In this document: positions 9,653 to 43,078 of the stretch, piece after piece
How the letters are laid out: each line of letters begins with the position of its first letter
Position numbering within the stretch: position 1 is the first letter of the stretch
DNA from: an uncultured Bdellovibrionales bacterium
GTDB taxonomy: Bacteria; Bdellovibrionota_C; UBA2361; SZUA-149; CALKYB01
Assembly: GCA_964510575.1 (NCBI GenBank)
Contig: CAZECN010000001.1
Coordinates: 2,131-66,130, forward strand
DNA length: 64,000 bases
Reading direction: 5' to 3'
Notes under the pieces: model-generated
The model's input: the letters and a program-made list of their open reading frames with translations, nothing else
Databases searched by the model: none
Told to the model about the DNA's origin: nothing
Position numbers and translations under genes: made by a program

Positions 9653-11476
9653 ATGCTAAGACTAGTAGTCATACCAGCCTATTTGGCTATATTTCACTTA
9701 AGTCTTGAATGGCTTTTTTTGGCAACAAAACCCTCATTTCTATCGAGGCTTTCTTACCTTGATCAATTCTTGGTTTATTTTAATTCTCTTGGCTTACCAA
9801 TTATCACTATTGTTTTAGTTTTTACAGTTCTTGTAGCTATCACCAAGGTCTTGTTTAAAGGATTCCCAATAAATTGGAGCAAAATAGTCTGGTGTATTCC
9901 TGCTGCCGCCATATTGGCATCCTTATGGTTTCTTCTTGCTAATACGTTCACTTATAACTTGTTTGGTCAGAGCATATTAGTAGAGCAAGGACGAGGTAGA
10001 CTAGTATACCTGCTTGTATTTGCTTTACTCTACACTTATTCCTTTAGTGTTTTGAATAAATTGATTAGAGAAAGTTTTTGGAAATACTATGAAAGAAAGT
10101 TACTGCTAGTTTTAGTGACTTTAGCCTTAGTATCAGTATGTTCCTGTCTCATAAGTAATCGACATTTAGAGGCTTCTTTAGACGATCTGAAGTTTGACTT
10201 GGATGCTAAAAGCGAACTACCTGATATTATTTTACTCTCTTCAGACGCTTTACTTTCATCTCATATGTCGGTTTATGGTTACGAAAGAGAGACTACACCC
10301 TTTTTAGCCAGTGATGATGACAGTTGGCTGATTTATGAAAATGCATTTTCTAACGCCAATCGCTCAGCAGGCTCAGTGCTTGCAATGCTGACTGGCCGGT
10401 CTCCACTTCACACTAAGATAATAACTTATCCTGATATTCTTCGTGGGCAAGATTCCCTCAGCCATTTTGTTGGACTGATTAGAAGTAAAGGCTATCGAAC
10501 CTTAGACATAAGTATTCGTGATTACGCTGATGCAGTAGATCGAAACATGTGCCTTGGCTTTGATTACGCCACTGGACGTAAATTGGATCAAGGCCTTTAC
10601 TCTATTCTAAGGAACTATCCTTCTTTACTTTGCTCAGATGAATTCTTTTTTCTTTCAAGAGTCTTTAGAAGATTAAACGAGCATTTGAAGCACACGCTTT
10701 ATCTAAAAAAAGTATCACTGTCCTGGCATAGTGTGACTAAAAAAGTTGATTTTTTTGAACAAGATGTAAAAAAGATGGATCGTCTTATGGAGTTTATTGA
10801 AAGCTCTAAAAAGCCGATATTTGCCCATGTGCACCTGTTGGGAACTCATGGACCGATGTATAGCCCTAAAAGCGAAGCCTTTTCAGGTGGACGTGACCAA
10901 AGTGAAGATCGAGAAATAGATTTCTATGATGACGCGATCAGAGACTTTGACCACCATATTGAACGGCTTATTTCGAGTCTGAAAGAAATAGGTAAACTAG
11001 AACAAACCTTAATAGTTATTCACTCTGACCATGATCGACACTTTAGAGTGGGTGGTCGTATACCACTTATGTTTAGATTTCCTAGGAAAGAGTTTATTGG
11101 TCGAAAACATCTTAACGCTCAGCTGTTAGATATCGCCCCTACTATTTTAGACTATCTTGGATCGGCAGAGCTGGACTGGATAGATGGGGAGAGTCTTTTT
11201 AATACTGACCTTGAGCCTGATCGTTTGTTGGTTGGCCTATCAGATATTTACCCATTTAAGCATTACTATTCAGCAGAACCTCCCTTTTTTAATATTGACT
11301 CTATCGAGCTTATCAGATGCGATAGACAGCTCTCCTATTCGGTTGACTCGAAAGAGATTACTGAAAGGCGTATTAAGGGGCATACCAAGCCATGTGAGAG
11401 TAATCCTTGGGATCGACCCGGGCAAGCTATGCGAGACATAGAGCAGCAAATTTCTATTTTTCTAAGCTCTGACTAA
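9653..11476 (+). CDS. Membrane-anchored alkaline-phosphatase-superfamily enzyme (LtaS/EptA/OpgB-like sulfatase-fold phosphotransferase)
   Basis: About 180 aa of N-terminal TM helices, then a sulfatase-fold domain: SAGSVLAMLTGRSP (Ser/Thr-nucleophile variant of the C-x-P-x-R region) and HLLGTHGPMY. The architecture matches LtaS/EptA-type transferases. Confidence 0.7.
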   Translation: MLRLVVIPAYLAIFHLSLEWLFLATKPSFLSRLSYLDQFLVYFNSLGLPIITIVLVFTVLVAITKVLFKGFPINWSKIVWCIPAAAILASLWFLLANTFTYNLFGQSILVEQGRGRLVYLLVFALLYTYSFSVLNKLIRESFWKYYERKLLLVLVTLALVSVCSCLISNRHLEASLDDLKFDLDAKSELPDIILLSSDALLSSHMSVYGYERETTPFLASDDDSWLIYENAFSNANRSAGSVLAMLTGRSPLHTKIITYPDILRGQDSLSHFVGLIRSKGYRTLDISIRDYADAVDRNMCLGFDYATGRKLDQGLYSILRNYPSLLCSDEFFFLSRVFRRLNEHLKHTLYLKKVSLSWHSVTKKVDFFEQDVKKMDRLMEFIESSKKPIFAHVHLLGTHGPMYSPKSEAFSGGRDQSEDREIDFYDDAIRDFDHHIERLISSLKEIGKLEQTLIVIHSDHDRHFRVGGRIPLMFRFPRKEFIGRKHLNAQLLDIAPTILDYLGSAELDWIDGESLFNTDLEPDRLLVGLSDIYPFKHYYSAEPPFFNIDSIELIRCDRQLSYSVDSKEITERRIKGHTKPCESNPWDRPGQAMRDIEQQISIFLSSD

Positions 11477-11589: not shown

Positions 11590-11925
11590 TTAAAGTAGAC
11601 GGGGTATATACTGCGCCTCATTTAAATTTCGGTTTAGCTAGACTAAGCATGGGCGCAGTATAAAGCCGAACTTTTAGTTCTGCCAAAAGACCATAGACTC
11701 AACCTCCAAGTATGCTTTTCAAGGCCTTTAGGCCTTGTCTGATTTTACTATCATTCAGAAAAACATGGGTAGGGTATTTGAACACTCTACTGGAAAAACG
11801 CTAGTCGCGTTTTACAGAGTTTTAGACGCAGTATCTGTCTTATGGCCATGCTAGCGCATGGCCGATATACTCAACCCTGCTAAACGCATAAAGGACCAAA
11901 TTTAAATCAGGTTGAGTATATAAGT
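11590..11925. repeat. Copy A of a roughly 330-bp noncoding repeat element, in an intergenic leader upstream of the 12024 gene
   Basis: Aligns block by block with the reverse complement of 19215-19535 at about 85% identity. Contains TATATACTGCGCC (11605-11617) / GGCGCAGTATAA (11652-11663), the perfect 20-nt palindrome GGCCATGCTAGCGCATGGCC (11844-11863), and TATACTCAACC (11866-11876) / GGTTGAGTATATA (11910-11922). Confidence 0.8.
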
Positions 11926-12023
11926 TTAAAGTCTTTTACCGTTGCCAAAACTTTGGCCCCATCTGATATTGACTATATCCAGTGGTTTAATTGAGCAGTG
12001 ATAAATAAGAGATAGGAACTTTT

Positions 12024-14976: not shown

Positions 14977-17001
14977 CTATTCACTGAAGCTTGGTTTCTC
15001 CACCGCCACAATAGAATTGTGTTGAGGAGGAAAGTAGTTTTTCCTTTCAAAGACAGGCAAGTGTTTGTAGTATGTCAGTTGCTTATTTTCAAACAAAGTG
15101 AGTATTTCGGATAACTTCTCATATACTTCTGGGTTCTTTAGTTGATTTCTTTCGTGAGGATCTGAGGCTATATTGAATAAACGCTCACCTCGCCCTCTAT
15201 AATTCCTAGTTAACTTGAAAGGATAGTAAATTAGAGCTGACTCATCGGTGATTGATTGATTCGTGGTATAAATCGTCCTAGCCGGCTTTGCTTGCTGATC
15301 TGCTTCTCTTAAGAGACTTTGTCCTTGATGGTTTGGATGAGGCTCAAGACCTGCAAGATGTAATATTGTAGGAGGTAAGTCTATATGCCCGACTGGGAGA
15401 CTTACCGTGTGTCGAGGTTTAAAGTTGGCTGTGCTGCTAAATATTATGGGCACGTTAATTGCTTCTTCATAAAGGTAAGAAGCATGGTTTGCAATACCAT
15501 GCTCGTTGAACATGCTTCCATGATCTCCAGTAATCAAAAGAATTGTATTGGAAGGCAGTGTTCGAGCGAACTTTTCTATGATTTCATCTAGGTAGTTTAA
15601 ACAGTTCCAGTAACGGTTTTGCATTGTAGCTGTAAGTCTATCGGGATAGTAGACAAAGCCAGGAATTCTTGAAATTTCGGTTGGTTGAAAATTAGTTCTA
15701 CTAGTTCTATTTTGATTGAATGGAAAATGAGTTGAGTACAAATATGCCATAGCAAATACAGGCTTGTTTTCTGAACCGCTCTCTTTAACGAAGTCCTGGA
15801 TTAAGCTTAGCTTTTTTTCGTCAGAGCCTGCTAAGTCTTGTCTATGAGTTTCCTCAGCAGAATGCCCTTTATCCTGCCCCCTAGTTTTTTCTTCAGTTGA
15901 AATAGTAGGATCGAAATATAAATTTAATCTAGGAGAATCTGTAACTCGCCGAGTAACTTGCCACTGTTCAGCGAGAAGGGCTGAGTTATACCCAGATTCA
16001 CTAAGAAGGTCGTATATCCGGGTAAAAGGATAGTCTAGCGATAAGTGGGCATCCTTTTTTATATCTTTGAGTGGATATAGACCGGTGATCAGAGTGGTAA
16101 AACTATCCCCTGTATCAGCTGCTTGAGAATATCCTTTTGGGAAAAAAAGTCCGGTTTGAGAAAGTTTATTTAGGTAGGGCATTATATCTTGCCCTTCTAC
16201 CTTTTTACCTATGACGTCAGCACGTAAAGCCTCAACAACTAAAAATATAATATTAGGCCTGTTTTCAAAGGGGATTGATGGAGAGTAACTATATTCTTTG
16301 TTTGCGGGCACTAAATCTAGATTGACAGTTTGAATTTTTCGACTAGAGCTATCGTAAAGAAATTCTCCAAATAGGCTAAGGGAAGGGAGAGAGTAGTGAT
16401 TTACTAAAAGTCCGAGTTGGCCAATTTGGTTGGGAGACATTCTCGACTTATTATTTTGGATAAAAATTAAATTAGTTGCTAGAAGAGTAACCAAAAGAAA
16501 AATCTTTGGTTTTAGTGAGCTGTTCTTTTTCGAAAAAAAACATGAAAAGTAGACTAGGGTAACCGCTGTTAAGGGAATGGTCAGTGCGAATAATATTTCT
16601 CTCGCAGATAAAAGATCGAGTAGTTGGCTAATATCCAGCAGAAATAAAGATAAGAATAAGTCGCTTTGATGTAGAAAGCTTCCTGAAAAATACCACTTAG
16701 CCCAACTTGCCCAACTAGTTATAAGCCAAAGGCACATAATTATAGCGGGAAAAAGACCTACTATCTTGACTAAAAAGCCTTGGGAGTCCTGTAAAAGTTT
16801 TTTTATTATAGAAGCTAGAATCGATAGAAGGAGTAGTTCAATCACTAGAGCGGTGAATACATGATTATGGCACGCAAAGTAGGCTTTGGCTTCTATGGCC
16901 AACCAGCTTGTTTCTTCTAGTTGTTGCTTTCTAAACCAGATGGATGGCAAGAGTGTTGCTGAAAATAAAACGAGATACTTTAGGTAGGTCTTAGTTCTCA
17001 T
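14977..17001 (-). CDS. Membrane-anchored alkaline-phosphatase-superfamily enzyme (LtaS/EptA/OpgB-like)
   Basis: About 230 aa of N-terminal TM region, then a sulfatase-fold domain: NIIFLVVEALRAD, TGDSFTTLITGLYP (Thr in place of the FGly Cys), LLITGDHG. Confidence 0.7.
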   Translation of the reverse strand: MRTKTYLKYLVLFSATLLPSIWFRKQQLEETSWLAIEAKAYFACHNHVFTALVIELLLLSILASIIKKLLQDSQGFLVKIVGLFPAIIMCLWLITSWASWAKWYFSGSFLHQSDLFLSLFLLDISQLLDLLSAREILFALTIPLTAVTLVYFSCFFSKKNSSLKPKIFLLVTLLATNLIFIQNNKSRMSPNQIGQLGLLVNHYSLPSLSLFGEFLYDSSSRKIQTVNLDLVPANKEYSYSPSIPFENRPNIIFLVVEALRADVIGKKVEGQDIMPYLNKLSQTGLFFPKGYSQAADTGDSFTTLITGLYPLKDIKKDAHLSLDYPFTRIYDLLSESGYNSALLAEQWQVTRRVTDSPRLNLYFDPTISTEEKTRGQDKGHSAEETHRQDLAGSDEKKLSLIQDFVKESGSENKPVFAMAYLYSTHFPFNQNRTSRTNFQPTEISRIPGFVYYPDRLTATMQNRYWNCLNYLDEIIEKFARTLPSNTILLITGDHGSMFNEHGIANHASYLYEEAINVPIIFSSTANFKPRHTVSLPVGHIDLPPTILHLAGLEPHPNHQGQSLLREADQQAKPARTIYTTNQSITDESALIYYPFKLTRNYRGRGERLFNIASDPHERNQLKNPEVYEKLSEILTLFENKQLTYYKHLPVFERKNYFPPQHNSIVAVEKPSFSE

Positions 17002-17208
17002 AAAAGAGTTAAGGCAGATTAACTAATAATATATCAACCTAGCTTATATTTCGCTTTTCAGAGGTCTGGTTGAGGGTACAATCAATGGGTCAGCACTGCT
17101 ATTAGATAACTATACTTCGTCAAAAGATGCTGCAAGTCTAAAGGACTTGGCAAGAAAAGGGTTTTTTATTGGAGAAAAGTCACTATATCACTCGTAGCGA
17201 GTTTTTCT

Positions 17209-17781
17209 TTATCCTATTTTATAGTTTAGGCACATTTTTCTACTTTTAAATTTTTTTTGAAGAGAAACTTTAAAACCGTCTTTCTTCAACTCTAGTGTCT
17301 CCTGGTGGTCGGATTGACTATGCTCCCAAACCAAGTGGACAGGGTAGGCTAGTGATATTTCTTTCATAAAACCCTCTTCCCTAAAATTTAGTAAATACCA
17401 CTCCCACTCCAGCCGAGCTAACTCTGGCAGATAGAACAAAGACTTAGCCTCAGGTCTAACTTCAGTCAGCTCTTCTAGGTAGCTTTCAAATCGATCACCG
17501 TATTGATTTAGATCAGGCTCATCTGGGGGAAATTTATGAAAGTAGTCTGCCGCGATTTGTTTGAAGTAATCTTCTCCAACAACTTTGCAGCAGGCGGGAA
17601 AGGTATCTTTTAGCGCTCCATAAAGGTTGGAGCGAACAGTCTGGCGATAGATGCTGATTTGTTTTTGAGGAGAACGCTTTCCTCCACTGGGAAAGAGGTC
17701 TAGCACTCCTGTCTCCTCATTAAGCCTGGGAGAGACAATAGCTCCTTTAATAAGAGCTTGGATTTCAGCCAGTCGCTTCAT
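17209..17781 (-). CDS. DUF2063-family protein (BufC/MbnC-like partner of MNIO enzymes)
   Basis: The N-terminal domain matches the DUF2063 pattern (IQALIKGAI...YRQTVRSNLYGALKDTFPACCKVVGEDYFKQIAADYF). Overlaps the upstream DUF692 gene by 17 nt. Confidence 0.6.
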   Translation of the reverse strand: MKRLAEIQALIKGAIVSPRLNEETGVLDLFPSGGKRSPQKQISIYRQTVRSNLYGALKDTFPACCKVVGEDYFKQIAADYFHKFPPDEPDLNQYGDRFESYLEELTEVRPEAKSLFYLPELARLEWEWYLLNFREEGFMKEISLAYPVHLVWEHSQSDHQETLELKKDGFKVSLQKKFKSRKMCLNYKIG

Positions 17782-18631
17782 GAAGCAGAGGCTGAGGGTT
17801 TAGTATCTGGTCTGCCTTGGAAGCTTCACAAGCGAGCACTGAAAATTCAGGAATATCGTTGTCCCACTCAATTAAAGAAGGAGTATCCCCACAATGTTCA
17901 ATTGCTGCTCTGTATATCTCCCAAACATCGTCTGGAACTTCCCGACTGTGAGTGTCGAGCATATAACCATCTCGCTCTTCTCCACCAGCTAAGTGAATCT
18001 CGCCAACCCTTTCTGCTGGGATGGAGCGAATATAATCCATGGCTTTGTCTCCATGGTTATACTGGCTAACGTAGATATTGTTTACATCTAGCAAAATACC
18101 GCAGTCAGCTTTTTCAGCCACGGCAGAGATAAACTCAGCCTCAGGCATTTGAGACTCTTTAAAAGTTAAGTAACTTGAAACGTTTTCAATCAATAACTTA
18201 CGTCCGAGAAAATCCTGAATTTCAGAGATTCTACCAGCAACGTGATTGATCGTCTCTTCAGTGTAGGGCAGGGGAAGTAGGTCATGAAAGTTGACCCCAT
18301 GGGCAGATGTCCAGCAAAGGTGTTCTGAGACCCATGCGGGTTGGAAGCGGTCAGCTAGAGCCTTTATTTTACCAACATAGTCCCAGTTTATAGGGTCAGT
18401 TGAGCCAACTGACATACCAACGCTGTGCATGGTAATTGGATAATGAGAACGTATTTGTTCAAGGTCAGCTAGAGCTTCACCTTCCGGGCCAAAGTAATTA
18501 TCAGTGAGAACTTCAAACCAGTTTATGTCTGGCTTATGCTCTAAAACGAAATCTAAGTGTTGGGGGCGCAGACCGATACCGGCTCCCGATACCGGCCTGC
18601 TTGATAATTGGTAATGAGTATTATTCTTCAT
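17765..18631 (-). CDS. DUF692 / MNIO (multinuclear non-heme iron oxidative) enzyme, BufB/MbnB-like
   Basis: GAGIGLRPQH... WVSEHLCW... LLPLPYTEE... LLIENVSSY... GCGILLDVNNIYVS... EIHLAGG... LIEWDNDIP. These are the full set of conserved DUF692 blocks. Confidence 0.8.
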   Translation of the reverse strand: MKNNTHYQLSSRPVSGAGIGLRPQHLDFVLEHKPDINWFEVLTDNYFGPEGEALADLEQIRSHYPITMHSVGMSVGSTDPINWDYVGKIKALADRFQPAWVSEHLCWTSAHGVNFHDLLPLPYTEETINHVAGRISEIQDFLGRKLLIENVSSYLTFKESQMPEAEFISAVAEKADCGILLDVNNIYVSQYNHGDKAMDYIRSIPAERVGEIHLAGGEERDGYMLDTHSREVPDDVWEIYRAAIEHCGDTPSLIEWDNDIPEFSVLACEASKADQILNPQPLLHEATG

Positions 18632-18649
18632 TACTAAGGATTGACTAAT

Positions 18650-19075
18650 TTACTTAGTCATATCTCCCATTATTTTGTCAGACATTTTATCGACCATGTC
18701 AGTTGTTTTATCTGCCATTTTGCCGGTCATGGCTTTAGTTTTATCAGTCATGGCAGCAGCTTTGTCGGTCATTTTATCAGCCATGCCTGCAGCAGGTTTT
18801 TCCCCTACAACTTTAGCTCCAACGATCTTGTCGCAAGCGCCTTTAGGAAGATAAAGCCATTCAGTTGGGTCGGAGTCCTTGTCAGCTTTACCAGAGCAGC
18901 TGTGACGGCCATCAGTTGAGCCACAATCGTTTTTTCCAGCCTTAGAGACACCAGCGCATTTTTCCCATGCTGTTGGAGCACCTGGAACACCAGCTTGAGC
19001 TTCACCAGCAAGAGATAAAGTAAGGGCTCCAGCAGCTGCTAGTCCTAGAAGAGTTGAGTCTTTTTTAATAGTCAT
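18650..19075 (-). CDS. DUF2282-family (bufferin-like) RiPP precursor: Sec signal peptide, 4-Cys core, C-terminal Met-rich repeat tail
   Basis: Signal peptide MTIKKDSTLLGLAAAGALTLSLAGEAQA. The core WEKCAGVSKAGKNDCGSTDGRHSCSG...DPTEWLYLPKGACDKIVG matches the DUF2282 consensus. The tail GMADKMTDKAAAMTDKTKAMTGKMADKTTDMVDKMSDKIMGDMTK has 9 Met in 44 aa. The gene lies 19 bp upstream of the MNIO gene. Confidence 0.75.
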   Translation of the reverse strand: MTIKKDSTLLGLAAAGALTLSLAGEAQAGVPGAPTAWEKCAGVSKAGKNDCGSTDGRHSCSGKADKDSDPTEWLYLPKGACDKIVGAKVVGEKPAAGMADKMTDKAAAMTDKTKAMTGKMADKTTDMVDKMSDKIMGDMTK

Positions 19076-19214
19076 TAAATTTATGCTCCAAAAGTGGTGA
19101 GTGCTTGCTATTCAGAACACCCACTTCAAATTAGCCAATATATTACTGCTTTGGACGATTACTTCGTAAGGTTAGTTAACCCGTTATAAGTTAATTTTTC
19201 AAATTTTTAAGCTC

Positions 19215-19535
19215 TTCAGGTGATATACTCAACCTACTTTAAATTTCGTCTTTTAAGGATGTGACCGGGTTGAGTATATTCGCCATGCGTTAGCATGGCC
19301 AAGAGACCAATACTGCGCCTGAAGCTCTCTAAAACGCGACCAGCGTTTTTCTATTAGAGTCTCCAAATACCTCGATTCTCTGGATTAGTAATTAATTTAG
19401 ACAAGACCTAAAGGTCTTGAAAAGCATATTTAGAGGTTGAGTATATGGTTTTTTGGCCTCGCCTGCGCTCGGCTCTATACTGCGCCTATCCTCAATCTAT
19501 CAAAACCTAAATTTCAATGAGGCGCAGTATCTTTG
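19215..19535. repeat. Copy B (inverted) of the roughly 330-bp noncoding repeat element, upstream of the bufferin-like operon and downstream of pstB
   Basis: Reverse complement of copy A. Motifs: GATATACTCAACC 19222-19234, GGGTTGAGTATAT 19267-19279, palindrome 19282-19300, ATACTGCGCC 19309-19319, GGTTGAGTATATGG 19435-19448, TATACTGCGCC 19486-19496, GGCGCAGTATC 19521-19531. Confidence 0.8.
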
Positions 19536-19565
19536 TTGAGCCGTACGAATCAAGGGTTTATGGCC

Positions 19566-41918: not shown

Positions 41919-42365
41919 ATGACTATAGAAATTACTGATAAAGAATTAGTTGAAAAAACTGCAATGGGAGACTTGTCTTCTGCTGAGGTCTTGATTGGCC
42001 GGCATGAAGTTAAAGTTTACTCCATGGCTATGCACTTAACTAGCGACGAAGAAGAGGCTGCAAGGGTTACAGAGCAGGTTTTCGTTCAGTTGATTAGTAA
42101 TATAGTTGAAGGAACTCAAGAAGAATTCGAGAACATGTTGCACCGCGTAACTTATGAGTTCGCGATTGCCAGTTTGCTAGGCAGAGTGGAGCAGCATACT
42201 CGTGACGTCAGAGCGCTTTGTGAAAATATCACAGGGATGGAGCTAATTGATAGTCACTATGAAGAAACTGGAGACCCTCTTCAAGAGGCTCGCTGGAGAT
42301 TGATGGATTCAGGGGACAATCTGGATGCTACTGATGATGCTCTAGAAATTATCGAAACAGATTAA
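41919..42365 (+). CDS. Protein with only a sigma-70 region 2 domain (ECF-sigma N-terminal homologue lacking region 4)
   Basis: LVEKTAMGDLSSAEVLIGRHEVKVYSMAMHLTSDEEEAARVTEQVFVQLISNI matches the ECF sigma region 2.1-2.2 pattern. The acidic C-terminal half has no HTH. Followed by a strong terminator. Confidence 0.4.
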   Translation: MTIEITDKELVEKTAMGDLSSAEVLIGRHEVKVYSMAMHLTSDEEEAARVTEQVFVQLISNIVEGTQEEFENMLHRVTYEFAIASLLGRVEQHTRDVRALCENITGMELIDSHYEETGDPLQEARWRLMDSGDNLDATDDALEIIETD

Positions 42366-42559: not shown

Positions 42560-43078
42560 ATGAACAAGTCTAATCAGAGTATTACTTTTAAAGGTAACCC
42601 AACCCCGGTTCATGGCAGTCAAGTTAGCGAAGGGGAGAAAGCTCCTGGTTTTAAACTAACTGGAAACGACATGGCTGATGTCCAGCTTACGGACTACGAC
42701 GGTAAGGTACTGGTTCTTCTATCTGTGCCTAGTGTTGAAACTCCAGTTTGTCAGACCGAGACTCGACGTTTCAATGAACTAGCGACAGACTTGTCTGATG
42801 ATATCAAAGTTCTAGCCGTAAGCGTCGACCTACCTTTTGCTCAAAAGCGTTGGTGTGGAGCTGAGGGAATTGAAGCAGTTAAGACTGCCAGTGATTATAA
42901 ATACAGAAAGTTTCAAGAAGACTATGGAGTTTATGCTTCTGATTTAGGTCTTCTAGCGCGTGCTGTTTTTGTTATTGGTAAAGATGGTAACGTTAAGCAC
43001 GTTGAATACGTTGGCGAAATTGCTGAAGAGCCTAACTACGATGCTGCACTTGAAGCTGCCAAGGGAGCTCTTAACTAG
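42560..43078 (+). CDS. tpx: Thiol peroxidase (atypical 2-Cys peroxiredoxin)
   Basis: VLLSVPSVETPVCQTETRRFNE is the Tpx peroxidatic-Cys motif. 172 aa. Confidence 0.85.
   Translation: MNKSNQSITFKGNPTPVHGSQVSEGEKAPGFKLTGNDMADVQLTDYDGKVLVLLSVPSVETPVCQTETRRFNELATDLSDDIKVLAVSVDLPFAQKRWCGAEGIEAVKTASDYKYRKFQEDYGVYASDLGLLARAVFVIGKDGNVKHVEYVGEIAEEPNYDAALEAAKGALN

What the first reader, a model, noticed from the sequence alone, without database searches (positions are those of the whole stretch)
18650..18790. Met-Asp-Lys repeat tail appended to the bufferin-like precursor
The last 44 residues of the DUF2282 protein are GMADKMTDKAAAMTDKTKAMTGKMADKTTDMVDKMSDKIMGDMTK. That is 9 Met at i+3/i+4/i+7 spacing with alternating Asp/Lys. 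Typical DUF2282 proteins are much shorter, to my recollection. Met-rich MxxxM-type motifs are classic Cu(I)/Ag(I) ligands (CopC, CusF, CueO insert, Ctr1). This looks like a fused low-affinity Cu(I)-capture tail on a Cys-derived copper-binding RiPP. The DNA here is a degenerate tandem repeat (tttatc/gtcat units).
Basis: partly seen in the sequence, partly recalled or inferred. Interest (0 to 1): 0.7.

Follow-up and report, generated by a model that had tools for sequence, protein, structure and literature searches.

The report
Methionine-rich helical tail on a bufferin
A copper-binding peptide precursor (bufferin BufA1) in one uncultured bacterial lineage carries an extra 45-residue, methionine-studded tail that is real and under selection; it most likely adds weak copper(I) capture sites or acts as an oxidant sink, but this needs experiments.

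Summary
ORF 18650..19075 (-) encodes a 141-aa DUF2282/BufA1 precursor. Its last 45 residues hold 9 Met, 9 Lys and 8 Asp in MxDK units. It is followed by bufB (MNIO) and a short bufC.

Typical family members are 68-93 aa and end about 16 residues after the last Cys; this one runs on for 60.

The tail is not an artefact. The identical protein occurs in three independent assemblies, and four diverged relatives keep the tail. Its dN/dS is 0.13-0.23, and AlphaFold2 predicts one long helix with the Met lined up on one face.

The tail is restricted to one small clade; the next relative lacks it. However, unrelated Met-rich and His-rich C-terminal tails recur sporadically, and apparently independently, elsewhere in the family. 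The bufferin papers I could search do not mention them.

The Cu(I)-capture reading is plausible but unproven. A strong rival is an MrpX-like sacrificial methionine sink, which has the same composition, the same compartment and belongs to the same SigF-type regulons as bufferins.

Verdict: a new variant of a known kind, of moderate interest.

The parts
18650..19075 (-). bufA: 141-aa BufA1/DUF2282 bufferin precursor, including the stop codon
   Evidence: ORF list and translation. Pfam PF10048 E = 2e-21. Four invariant Cys: C40, C51, C60, C81. The exact protein lies on 4 contigs from 3 assemblies.
18992..19075 (-). Predicted Sec signal peptide, aa 1-28, cleaved after AQA before GVP
   Evidence: Read from the sequence: Lys-rich n-region, hydrophobic LLGLAAAGALTLSLAG, then AQA|G. 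The position is conserved in the alignment. No signal-peptide predictor was run.
18815..18967 (-). DUF2282 core domain, aa 37-87, with the four conserved Cys
   Evidence: Pfam match to profile positions 1-51 of 53. AlphaFold2 pLDDT is 84-96 with three strands. dN/dS is 0.04-0.08 for the mature region before the tail, aa 29-95, which contains this domain.
18653..18787 (-). Met-Asp-Lys tail, aa 97-141: units MADK/MTDKAAA/MTDKTKA/MTGK/MADKTTD/MVDK/MSDKI/MGD/MTK
   Evidence: Composition and spacing. Predicted single helix 96-140, pLDDT 75-84. Met stripe: resultant 0.71 at 98.2 degrees per residue, shuffle P = 0.002. dN/dS 0.13-0.23. Absent from the nearest non-clade relatives.
17765..18631 (-). 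bufB: MNIO (DUF692) bufferin maturase, 288 aa, starting 18 nt after the bufA stop
   Evidence: Pfam MbnB_TglH_ChrH E = 2e-106. NCBIfam NF050167 MNIO_BufB equivalog, 364.5 bits against a cut-off of 310.
17209..17781 (-). bufC: short DUF2063/HvfC_N partner protein, 190 aa, overlapping the end of bufB
   Evidence: Pfam DUF2063 E = 3.5e-19. NCBIfam HvfC scores only 39.6 bits against a cut-off of 142 and covers profile positions 22-115 of 237. The partner is equally short in relatives, 186 aa in L001 and L006.
19163..19187 (-). Candidate ECF-type (sigma-F-like) promoter ATAACG-N15-CGAA, about 90 nt upstream of the bufA ATG
   Evidence: The motif (G/A)TAAC(A/G)-N15-CG(T/A)A is conserved in L005 and L001 while the flanks diverge. 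It resembles the Caulobacter sigma-F site GTAACC-N16-CGAA in front of buf1 (PMC3511200). This is inference only; the spacer is 1 nt shorter.

Best explanation
The tail is a genuine, translated and selectively maintained C-terminal extension of a BufA1 bufferin precursor.

Shown here:
- It is appended after the family's normal C-terminus (...GEKPAK).
- It is confined to one small uncultured clade.
- It is built of MxDK units with 0 or 3 spacer residues.
- It is predicted to form one 45-residue amphipathic helix, with its first seven Met on one narrow face.

Inferred from bufferin 1 of Caulobacter:
- The precursor is modified by BufB/BufC on its two central Cys, which become thiooxazoles.
- It is exported by Sec and its signal peptide is cut.
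- The mature peptide then sits in the periplasm with the tail still attached. C-terminal tags did not disturb modification of Buf1.

Proposed mechanism (inference): the thioether stripe provides several weak, oxidation-tolerant, Cu(I)/Ag(I)-selective sites. These would be MxxxM pairs on one helix face, possibly completed between helices. They would collect cuprous ions and either hand them to the very tight thiooxazole site or raise the capacity above one copper per peptide. The Met-rich segments of CueO, SilE and PcoE are thought to work this way.
For: The locus is a bufABC cluster.

The tail is real and functional.
- It is present in three independent assemblies and in diverged relatives.
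- Its dN/dS is 0.13-0.23 at dS 0.3-0.7.
- AlphaFold2 predicts a helix over residues 96-140 with pLDDT 75-84.
- The Met periodicity fits an 11/3 helix face, P = 0.002.
- Met is enriched 13-fold over the rest of the window.

Ligand-rich tails recur at the family level.
- Met-rich tails of unrelated sequence occur in P0217, P0222, P0224, P0111, P0134 and P0194. Short MMMDKM-type caps occur in P0101, P0155 and P0160, with other short Met clusters in P0152 and P0190.
- His/acid-rich tails occur in P0106, P0131 and P0189.
- For most of these Met-rich proteins the nearest neighbours by domain identity lack a Met-rich tail (P0155 and P0222 are each other's nearest). This suggests several independent acquisitions.

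Literature.
- Buf1 binds one Cu, with KD about 7e-20 M for Cu+, and it tolerates C-terminal tags (PMC11626156).
- On CueO's Met-rich helix, Cu7 is held by M364/M368/M376, and the domain recruits Cu+ (PMC11494321).
- SilE is a disordered periplasmic Met/His 'sponge' (PMC5008109).
Against: - No binding experiment exists for this tail.
- Canonical MxxM/MxM or HxxM motifs are almost absent: there is one MxxM and no His or Cys.
- An isolated MxxxM pair gives only two thioethers.
- No copper-homeostasis gene was found in the 64-kb window.
- Two stripe Met are replaced by Val or Leu in close relatives.
- The helical Met stripe is not shared by the other Met-rich BufA1 tails.
- The same composition is found in MrpX, a protein shown to act as an oxidant sink (PMC4436054).
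- The core site is so tight that it is unclear what a weak antenna would add.
Confidence: 0.42

Rival explanations
1. MrpX-like sacrificial methionine sink. The tail's exposed Met are oxidised by hypochlorite or copper-generated oxidants in the periplasm. This would protect the oxidation-sensitive thiooxazole thiols and other envelope proteins. The Met would then be re-reduced by periplasmic MsrP/MsrQ (YedYZ). On this reading the protein fuses a bufferin to an MrpX-type module. This is not exclusive with copper binding.
For: - Azospira MrpX is a signal-peptide-bearing periplasmic peptide with 20% Met and 44% charged residues, rapidly oxidised by hypochlorite. It belongs to the SigF/NrsF regulon together with yedYZ (PMC4436054).
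- The tail has 20% Met and 38% charged residues. The UPEC homologue c3568 (L090:26948-27190) has 17% Met and 40% charged residues in its mature part, with MDK/DKM motifs.
- In Caulobacter the SigF regulon contains both buf operons and yedY (PMC3511200).
- A sigma-F-like ECF motif is conserved upstream of bufA here.
- Buf1 shows a labile S-S form of its modified residues.
Against: - There is no alignable similarity to c3568 (BLASTP E = 0.18).
- No msrP/msrQ, sigF or nrsF was found in the 64-kb window.
- MrpX is thought to be natively unfolded with irregular Met spacing of about 5. This tail has a helical Met stripe that a pure sink would not need.
- His-rich acidic tails on other BufA1 proteins point to metal binding rather than oxidant scavenging.
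Confidence: 0.3
2. Structural helix. The Met stripe is simply a flexible hydrophobic seam. It lets the tail self-associate as a coiled coil, dock back onto the bufferin domain, or lie on a membrane or a partner protein. That would retain or organise the small peptide in the periplasm.
For: - A long helix is predicted with moderate confidence.
- Hydrophobic-moment and Met-angle clustering are typical of amphipathic helices.
- Stripe Met are replaced by Val or Leu in P0001 and L005, which keeps hydrophobicity but not ligand chemistry.
- The tail gives weak sub-threshold profile similarity to YtxH-type helical stress proteins.
Against: - The stripe is one residue wide and almost purely Met. An ordinary amphipathic or coiled-coil seam would use Leu, Ile or Val.
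- Six of the nine single-base changes of ATG give hydrophobic residues, so the two substitutions carry no weight.
- Other BufA1 Met-rich tails lack the helical periodicity.
- The YtxH score is 16 bits against a cut-off of 37.5.
Confidence: 0.13
3. The tail is a nearly neutral low-complexity expansion produced by slippage of a 12/21-nt unit. It would be tolerated because the C-terminus of BufA1 is free, and it would have no specific function.
For: - The DNA is a degenerate repeat.
- Indels occur at unit boundaries between relatives, and P0003 has only four units.
- Many BufA1 proteins carry other low-complexity tails, such as PA-rich or TE-rich ones.
Against: - dN/dS is 0.13-0.23 with substantial synonymous divergence.
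- Length is stable at 141-143 aa across several strains.
- Seven of nine Met are retained at 81% overall identity.
- Met enrichment recurs in unrelated tails.
Confidence: 0.08
4. The tail is a recognition or follower sequence for the maturation enzymes. It would compensate for the short BufC, which lacks most of the RRE-type C-terminal domain.
For: BufC here is 190 aa and matches only the N-terminal half of the HvfC model.
Against: The tail-less relative L006 has an equally short BufC of 186 aa. The short BufC therefore does not co-vary with the tail.
Confidence: 0.04

Closest known systems
Bufferin 1 (BufA1, DUF2282/PF10048) of Caulobacter vibrioides and its bufABCD cluster (PMC11626156; PMC12452194)
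   Same: Sec signal peptide, DUF2282 domain with four conserved Cys, and adjacent MNIO (BufB equivalog) and DUF2063 (BufC) genes in the same order. A candidate ECF-type promoter lies upstream.
   Different: It has a 45-residue Met/Asp/Lys helical tail after the normal C-terminus. There is no DoxX (bufD) gene, BufC is short, and no sigF/nrsF lies nearby. The papers searched list fusions to cytochrome c, FGE-sulfatase, MerC and a second Buf1 domain, but no Met-rich tails.
MrpX, the periplasmic methionine-rich peptide of Azospira suillum (Dsui_0158) and UPEC c3568 (PMC4436054; PMC8550376)
   Same: Periplasmic location. About 17-20% Met and about 40% charged residues. MDK/DKM-type motifs. Membership of SigF/NrsF-type stress regulons that also include bufferin operons in Caulobacter.
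   Different: There is no detectable homology (E = 0.18). MrpX is a stand-alone peptide encoded next to yedYZ (msrPQ), has His and Cys, and has irregular Met spacing of about 5. The tail is fused to a bufferin, has no His or Cys, and shows i+4/i+7 helical spacing.
Met-rich domain of the multicopper oxidase CueO (PMC11494321; PMC12041951)
   Same: A periplasmic, Met-dense segment that includes a helix on which Met at i, i+4 and i+12 bind Cu(I). It is proposed to recruit Cu+ for a tighter site.
   Different: In CueO it is an insert in a large enzyme, next to a catalytic Cu5/T1 site, and it contains Asp/His ligands and MxxM clusters. Here it is a free C-terminal helix on a 12-kDa peptide.
SilE/PcoE periplasmic metal 'sponges' (PMC5008109)
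   Same: Small periplasmic proteins that are Met-rich and highly charged. They are disordered to helical and bind several Ag(I)/Cu(I) ions with modest affinity.
   Different: SilE/PcoE use paired His and Met (HxxM/MxxH) motifs. The tail has no His. There is no sequence similarity, and the sil/pco genes are absent.
MxxxM motif of the Ctr1 copper transporters (from my own knowledge of the family, not checked here)
   Same: Met at i and i+4 on one helix face. In the Ctr1 trimer these form stacked Met rings that hold Cu(I).
   Different: In Ctr1 this is a transmembrane helix in an obligate trimer. Nothing here shows oligomerisation.

Membership tests
BufA1 / DUF2282 bufferin precursor | Match to Pfam PF10048 above the gathering score | tested here: met
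   76.1 bits against a cut-off of 22.4, E = 2e-21, aa 37-87.
BufA1 / DUF2282 bufferin precursor | Four conserved Cys (CysI-IV) | tested here: met
   C40, C51, C60 and C81 are invariant in a 73-sequence alignment.
BufA1 / DUF2282 bufferin precursor | N-terminal Sec signal peptide | tested here: met
   By inspection only: KK n-region, hydrophobic core, AQA|G site, conserved among relatives. No predictor was available.
BufA1 / DUF2282 bufferin precursor | Adjacent MNIO maturase of the BufB type | tested here: met
   NCBIfam NF050167 equivalog, 364.5 bits against a cut-off of 310. The gene starts 18 nt after bufA.
BufA1 / DUF2282 bufferin precursor | DUF2063-RRE partner protein (BufC, about 250-260 aa) | tested here: inconclusive
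   The DUF2063 domain is present (69.3 bits). However, the protein is 190 aa and falls below the HvfC NCBIfam cut-off (39.6 against 142).
BufA1 / DUF2282 bufferin precursor | DoxX (BufD) gene in the cluster (frequent, not universal) | tested here: not met
   The next gene downstream is a sulfatase-family protein. There is no room for another ORF in 17001-17209.
BufA1 / DUF2282 bufferin precursor | Thiooxazole modification of CysII/III and 1:1 copper binding | not testable with these tools
   Known only for Caulobacter Buf1 (PMC11626156).
MrpX-type periplasmic Met-rich peptide | About 20% Met plus about 40% charged residues, exported to the periplasm | tested here: met
   The tail has 20% Met and 38% D+K and sits behind a signal peptide. 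MrpX has 20% and 44% (PMC4436054).
MrpX-type periplasmic Met-rich peptide | Encoded next to yedYZ/msrPQ | tested here: not met
   No molybdopterin oxidoreductase or cytochrome b partner was found among the larger ORFs of the 64-kb window (53 ORFs of 86 aa or more scanned). The rest of the genome was not available.
MrpX-type periplasmic Met-rich peptide | Sequence similarity to a known MrpX | tested here: not met
   BLASTP against mature UPEC c3568 gives E = 0.18 over 11 residues. The family is itself described as poorly conserved.
Canonical Met-motif Cu(I)/Ag(I) binders (Ctr1 N-terminus, CopC, PcoE/SilE) | Clusters of MxxM/MxM or HxxM/MxxH motifs | tested here: not met
   There is only one MxxM (MGDM) and no His. 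The spacings are 4,7,7,4,7,4,5,3.
Canonical Met-motif Cu(I)/Ag(I) binders (Ctr1 N-terminus, CopC, PcoE/SilE) | Measured Cu(I)/Ag(I) binding | not testable with these tools
   Needs ITC, BCA/BCS competition or native MS.

The most novel reading that the evidence does not exclude
The protein is a natural fusion of a bufferin with an MrpX-like methionine module. That would indicate that thiooxazole metallophores and periplasmic Met-rich peptides are two arms of one SigF-type envelope defence against copper and chlorine/oxygen oxidants.

In this reading the Met stripe acts as a redox- and metal-responsive switch. When reduced it is a helical Cu(I)-binding seam, possibly forming Ctr1-like Met rings between helices and holding several Cu(I) per peptide. 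Oxidation would make it polar and unfolded, and MsrP would reset it. Stand-alone MrpX peptides could then also be copper-handling proteins.
Probability: 0.15. Interest if true: 0.7.

Novelty: new variant of a known kind. Interest (0 to 1): 0.5.

Why it matters
Bufferins were described only in 2024. They are among the most numerous RiPP families, yet how they meet copper in the periplasm is unknown, as is whether they deal with oxidants as well as metals.

A clade-specific, selected Met-stripe helix fused to the core gives a simple experimental handle: full-length against tail-less peptide, tested for Cu(I)/Ag(I) stoichiometry and for HOCl sensitivity. So does the wider pattern of sporadic Met-rich and His-rich tails in the family.

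The compositional match to MrpX suggests a testable functional connection between two periplasmic stress systems. So does the shared SigF-type regulation of bufferin operons, msrP and mrpX in other bacteria. To my knowledge that connection has not been drawn.

Tried and rejected
- **Tail-only search of the 5.8-billion-protein collection.** It returned no candidates because of the word filter, so it was uninformative and cost one search.
- **Tail against Pfam.** Only sub-threshold YtxH (16.4 bits against 37.5) and MT0933 matches appeared. I rejected these as compositional.
- **Tail against PDB sequences and NCBIfam.** Nothing.
- **Motif scan of all window ORFs.** I searched for HMA, P1B-ATPase, multicopper-oxidase and Met motifs. 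Only chance CPC matches appeared, without DKTGT.
- **Pfam annotation of 53 window ORFs.** They are housekeeping genes: ATP synthase, pst, glmSU, trp, PBP1 and glycosyltransferases. None are copper, Msr or SigF/NrsF genes.
- **Sigma-70 promoter and terminator scan.** Not above shuffled expectation.
- **Rfam on the upstream intergenic region.** Nothing.
- **JGI metagenome scan.** It found no further tail-bearing relatives; 0 of the 16 loci with a recognisable domain have the tail.
- **Test of Met against non-Met conservation in the tail.** Too few sequences to be significant. The two Met-to-Val/Leu changes are uninformative, because 6 of 9 single-base changes of ATG give hydrophobic residues.
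- **Idea that the tail compensates for the short BufC.** Rejected, because the tail-less relative L006 has the same short BufC.
- **Organism identity.** It could not be established.

Full report
**What is there.**
- Residues 1-28 look like a Sec signal peptide: a KK n-region, a hydrophobic core and an AQA|G cleavage site.
- Residues 37-87 match Pfam DUF2282, now named BufA1 (E = 2e-21). They carry the four family-invariant Cys: C40, C51, C60 and C81.
- The gene is followed 18 nt later by an MNIO enzyme. It passes the NCBIfam equivalog cut-off for the bufferin maturase BufB (364.5 against 310 bits).
- Next comes an overlapping DUF2063 protein, BufC.

This is a bufABC cluster of the kind described for Caulobacter (PMC11626156). 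It has no DoxX gene, and BufC is unusually short at 190 aa.

**The tail.**
- Residues 97-141 (window 18653..18787) read GMADKMTDKAAAMTDKTKAMTGKMADKTTDMVDKMSDKIMGDMTK.
- They hold 9 Met, 9 Lys and 8 Asp and no His or Cys. The Met spacings are 4,7,7,4,7,4,5,3.
- The sequence parses into MxDK units followed by 0 or 3 spacer residues.
- Met is 1.5% of the other ORFs in the window. The chance of 9 Met in 45 residues is about 2e-8, and no other 45-residue stretch exceeds 6.
- At the DNA level the repeat is degenerate. Tandem Repeats Finder reports only a 21-nt period with 2.6 copies and 72% matches.

**Is the tail unusual for the family? Yes.**
- A domain-only profile search hit the 8000-candidate ceiling. 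The 116 newly returned proteins among its best 120 hits are 68-93 aa (median 89). They have 8-23 residues after the last Cys and 0.3% Met there.
- In 218 homologues from the first two searches, the median length after CysIV is 16 residues, against 60 here.
- I picked 80 GTDB loci by BufB similarity, so the choice was blind to the tail. Only the window's own clade has the tail (L005, BufB 94% identical). The next relative, L006 (BufB 80%), ends ...AEKPAKS.
- Of the 18 JGI metagenome loci returned, the 16 with a recognisable domain have no such tail.

**Is the tail real and functional?**
- The identical protein is encoded on four contigs from three independent assemblies.
- Near-identical strains give 141-143-aa variants.
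- P0002 (81% identity) keeps the tail with one 4-residue insertion and two small deletions. P0003 (74%) has a short version, AAMADKMVDKMADKMAK.
- Nei-Gojobori estimates give dN/dS of 0.13, 0.23 and 0.21 for the tail at dS 0.28-0.72. The mature region before the tail (aa 29-95, containing the DUF2282 domain) gives 0.04-0.08. The tail is therefore translated and under purifying selection, though it is looser than the core.
- AlphaFold2, run with a 73-sequence alignment, predicts a confident beta-rich core (pLDDT 84-96). It predicts a single helix over residues 96-140 with pLDDT 75-84.
- On an 11/3 helix (98.2 degrees per residue) the Met vectors have a resultant of 0.71 (P = 0.002 by shuffling). 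The first seven Met fall within a 60-degree arc. The clade members share this stripe. Independent Met-rich tails do not.

**A wider pattern.**
The exhaustive search of 50%-identity representatives found 1010 family clusters. Several divergent ones carry ligand-rich C-termini.
- Long Met-rich tails:
  - P0217: 9 Met and 4 His.
  - P0222: 8 Met.
  - P0224: KMDGKMMD-type repeats.
  - P0111, P0134, P0194 and P0226 also have them.
- Short caps such as GGMMMDKM: P0101, P0155 and P0160. P0152 and P0190 carry other short Met clusters.
- His/acid-rich tails: P0106, P0131 and P0189.

The ranking of that search was partly driven by the query's own tail. I therefore counted only the 122 representatives whose match ended before the tail. 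Six of them have at least 3 Met in a 12-residue window, excluding one BufA-BufB read-through. In the domain-only sample the count is 0 of 113.

Such tails are therefore rare, roughly 0-5% of clusters, but they recur. For most of these Met-rich proteins the nearest neighbours by domain identity have no Met-rich tail (P0155 and P0222 are each other's nearest). This argues for several independent gains. Where context was available, these genes also sit in buf-like clusters. In L088 an ECF sigma gene precedes two tandem bufA genes.

Term searches of the two bufferin papers found no mention of methionine or Met-rich sequences, and the captophorin preprint has no occurrence of 'methionine'.

**Mechanism.**
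Caulobacter Buf1 binds one copper through two thiooxazoles. Its KD is about 6e-15 M for Cu2+ and about 7e-20 M for Cu+. It is still fully modified when C-terminal tags are added (PMC11626156). A C-terminal extension should therefore be compatible with maturation and would end up in the periplasm attached to the core.

I see two concrete functions.

(a) Copper(I)/silver(I) capture.
- Thioether-only sites are oxidation-tolerant and selective for soft ions.
- On CueO's Met-rich helix, M364/M368/M376 hold Cu7, and the domain helps recruit tightly chelated Cu+ (PMC11494321).
- SilE is a Met/His-rich periplasmic sponge (PMC5008109).
- Recurrent His-rich and Met-rich tails on a copper-binding domain fit a metal-handling theme.

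(b) An MrpX-like sacrificial sink.
- Azospira MrpX is a periplasmic peptide with 20% Met and 44% charged residues. Hypochlorite oxidises it and YedY/MsrP recycles it. It belongs to the SigF/NrsF regulon (PMC4436054).
- The tail has 20% Met and 38% charged residues.
- The UPEC homologue c3568, which I retrieved from CFT073, has 17% Met and 40% charged residues in its mature part, with MDK/DKM motifs.
- The Caulobacter SigF regulon contains both buf operons and yedY (PMC3511200).
- Upstream of bufA a motif (G/A)TAAC(A/G)-N15-CG(T/A)A is conserved in three diverged loci. It resembles the sigma-F site GTAACC-N16-CGAA.

Points against (b):
- There is no alignable similarity to c3568 (E = 0.18).
- There are no msrPQ genes in the window.
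- The tail has a helical periodicity that a pure sink would not need.

Points against (a):
- Canonical MxxM/HxxM motifs are nearly absent.
- There are no copper genes in the window.
- There is no binding data.

I rank (a) first at 0.42 and (b) second at 0.30, and the two are not exclusive. Lesser rivals are:
- a purely structural amphipathic helix (0.13);
- a near-neutral low-complexity expansion (0.08), which the dN/dS values disfavour;
- a recognition element compensating for the short BufC (0.04), contradicted by the equally short BufC of the tail-less relative L006.

**Context.**
The window is an ordinary chromosomal region with ATP synthase, pstSCAB, glmU/glmS, trp genes, PBP1 and glycosyltransferases. 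The organism could not be named. The closest genomes are 'uncultured bacterium' MAGs, after which BufB identity falls to 55% across scattered phyla.

**Verdict.**
The identity, rarity and reality of the tail are right, and copper(I) capture is plausible but untested.
- The feature is a new variant of a known kind: a BufA1 bufferin with a Met-stripe helical tail. It is of moderate interest, mainly because it offers a clean experiment and hints at a link between bufferins and Met-rich periplasmic peptides.

Noticed in passing
window 19222-19565 and window 11590-11940: A dispersed intergenic element of about 344 nt is present twice in the window, at about 80% identity and in opposite orientations. 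Each copy lies just upstream of a gene and in that gene's orientation (bufA, and a GT87 glycosyltransferase). It contains perfect 11-12-bp inverted repeats 32-33 nt apart (ATATACTCAACC and ATACTGCGCCT; 6 hits each against 0.3-0.6 expected). The copy between pstB and bufA is absent from the close relatives L005 and L001, so it is an insertion, MITE/REP-like. It has no Rfam match.
   Followed up: partly
window 17209-17781 (-); L001:11244-11804; L006:4813-5373: BufC is only 186-190 aa in this whole lineage, against the roughly 250-260 aa reported for DUF2063-RRE partners. It matches only the N-terminal half of the HvfC model, so the RRE-type domain seems truncated or missing. This is independent of the tail.
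   Followed up: partly
window 14977-17001 (-) and 9653-11476 (+): Two paralogous large membrane-anchored sulfatase-family proteins (LTA-synthase/phosphoethanolamine-transferase-like) are present. One lies directly downstream of bufC, where a DoxX gene is often found. The cluster has no bufD.
   Followed up: no
L001:10447-11260: In the locus of the tail-bearing relative P0002, bufB is called as two ORFs of 212 and 76 aa. This is either a frameshift or a sequencing error, so that cluster may be decaying.
   Followed up: no
P0009, P0010, P0079-P0081, P0092, P0099, P0127 (protein ids); P0088: Several relatives have two DUF2282 domains in tandem in one protein. P0088 reads through from BufA into the start of BufB, which is either a fusion or a frameshift artefact.
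   Followed up: no
P0106, P0131, P0189, P0176 (protein ids): Other BufA1 proteins end in His/acid-rich tails (EEEEEEEHDDHHH; DDVDDGHDDHDDH; EEKHDDHAAE). One ends in an extra Cys/His repeat (MMMEEKHTCAGKNSCAAGEEKHSCSGKNSCA). These suggest that different metal-ligand tails were added to the same core.
   Followed up: partly
L088:77-1655 and L087:750-1491: In L088 an ECF sigma gene and a 62-aa Cys-containing ORF precede two tandem bufA genes. Only the second bufA carries a Met-rich tail. In L087 a 93-aa lipoprotein-like ORF rich in Cys, His and Ser (…CSGSKHKSGDTSECGCDHKCGKPHH…) sits just upstream of the Met/His-tailed P0217.
   Followed up: no
window 18641-18919 (+) and 18675-18854 (+): Antisense ORFs of 92 and 59 aa overlap the tail. 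The 92-aa one is His-rich because CAT is the complement of ATG. They are mirror artefacts of the repeat; selection acts on the bufA frame.
   Followed up: yes
window 41919-42365 (+) and 42560-43078 (+): A 148-aa ORF gives a weak, sub-threshold Sigma70_r2 match (E = 0.005). It lies next to a peroxiredoxin (Redoxin/AhpC-TSA) gene and may be a divergent ECF-type sigma factor.
   Followed up: no
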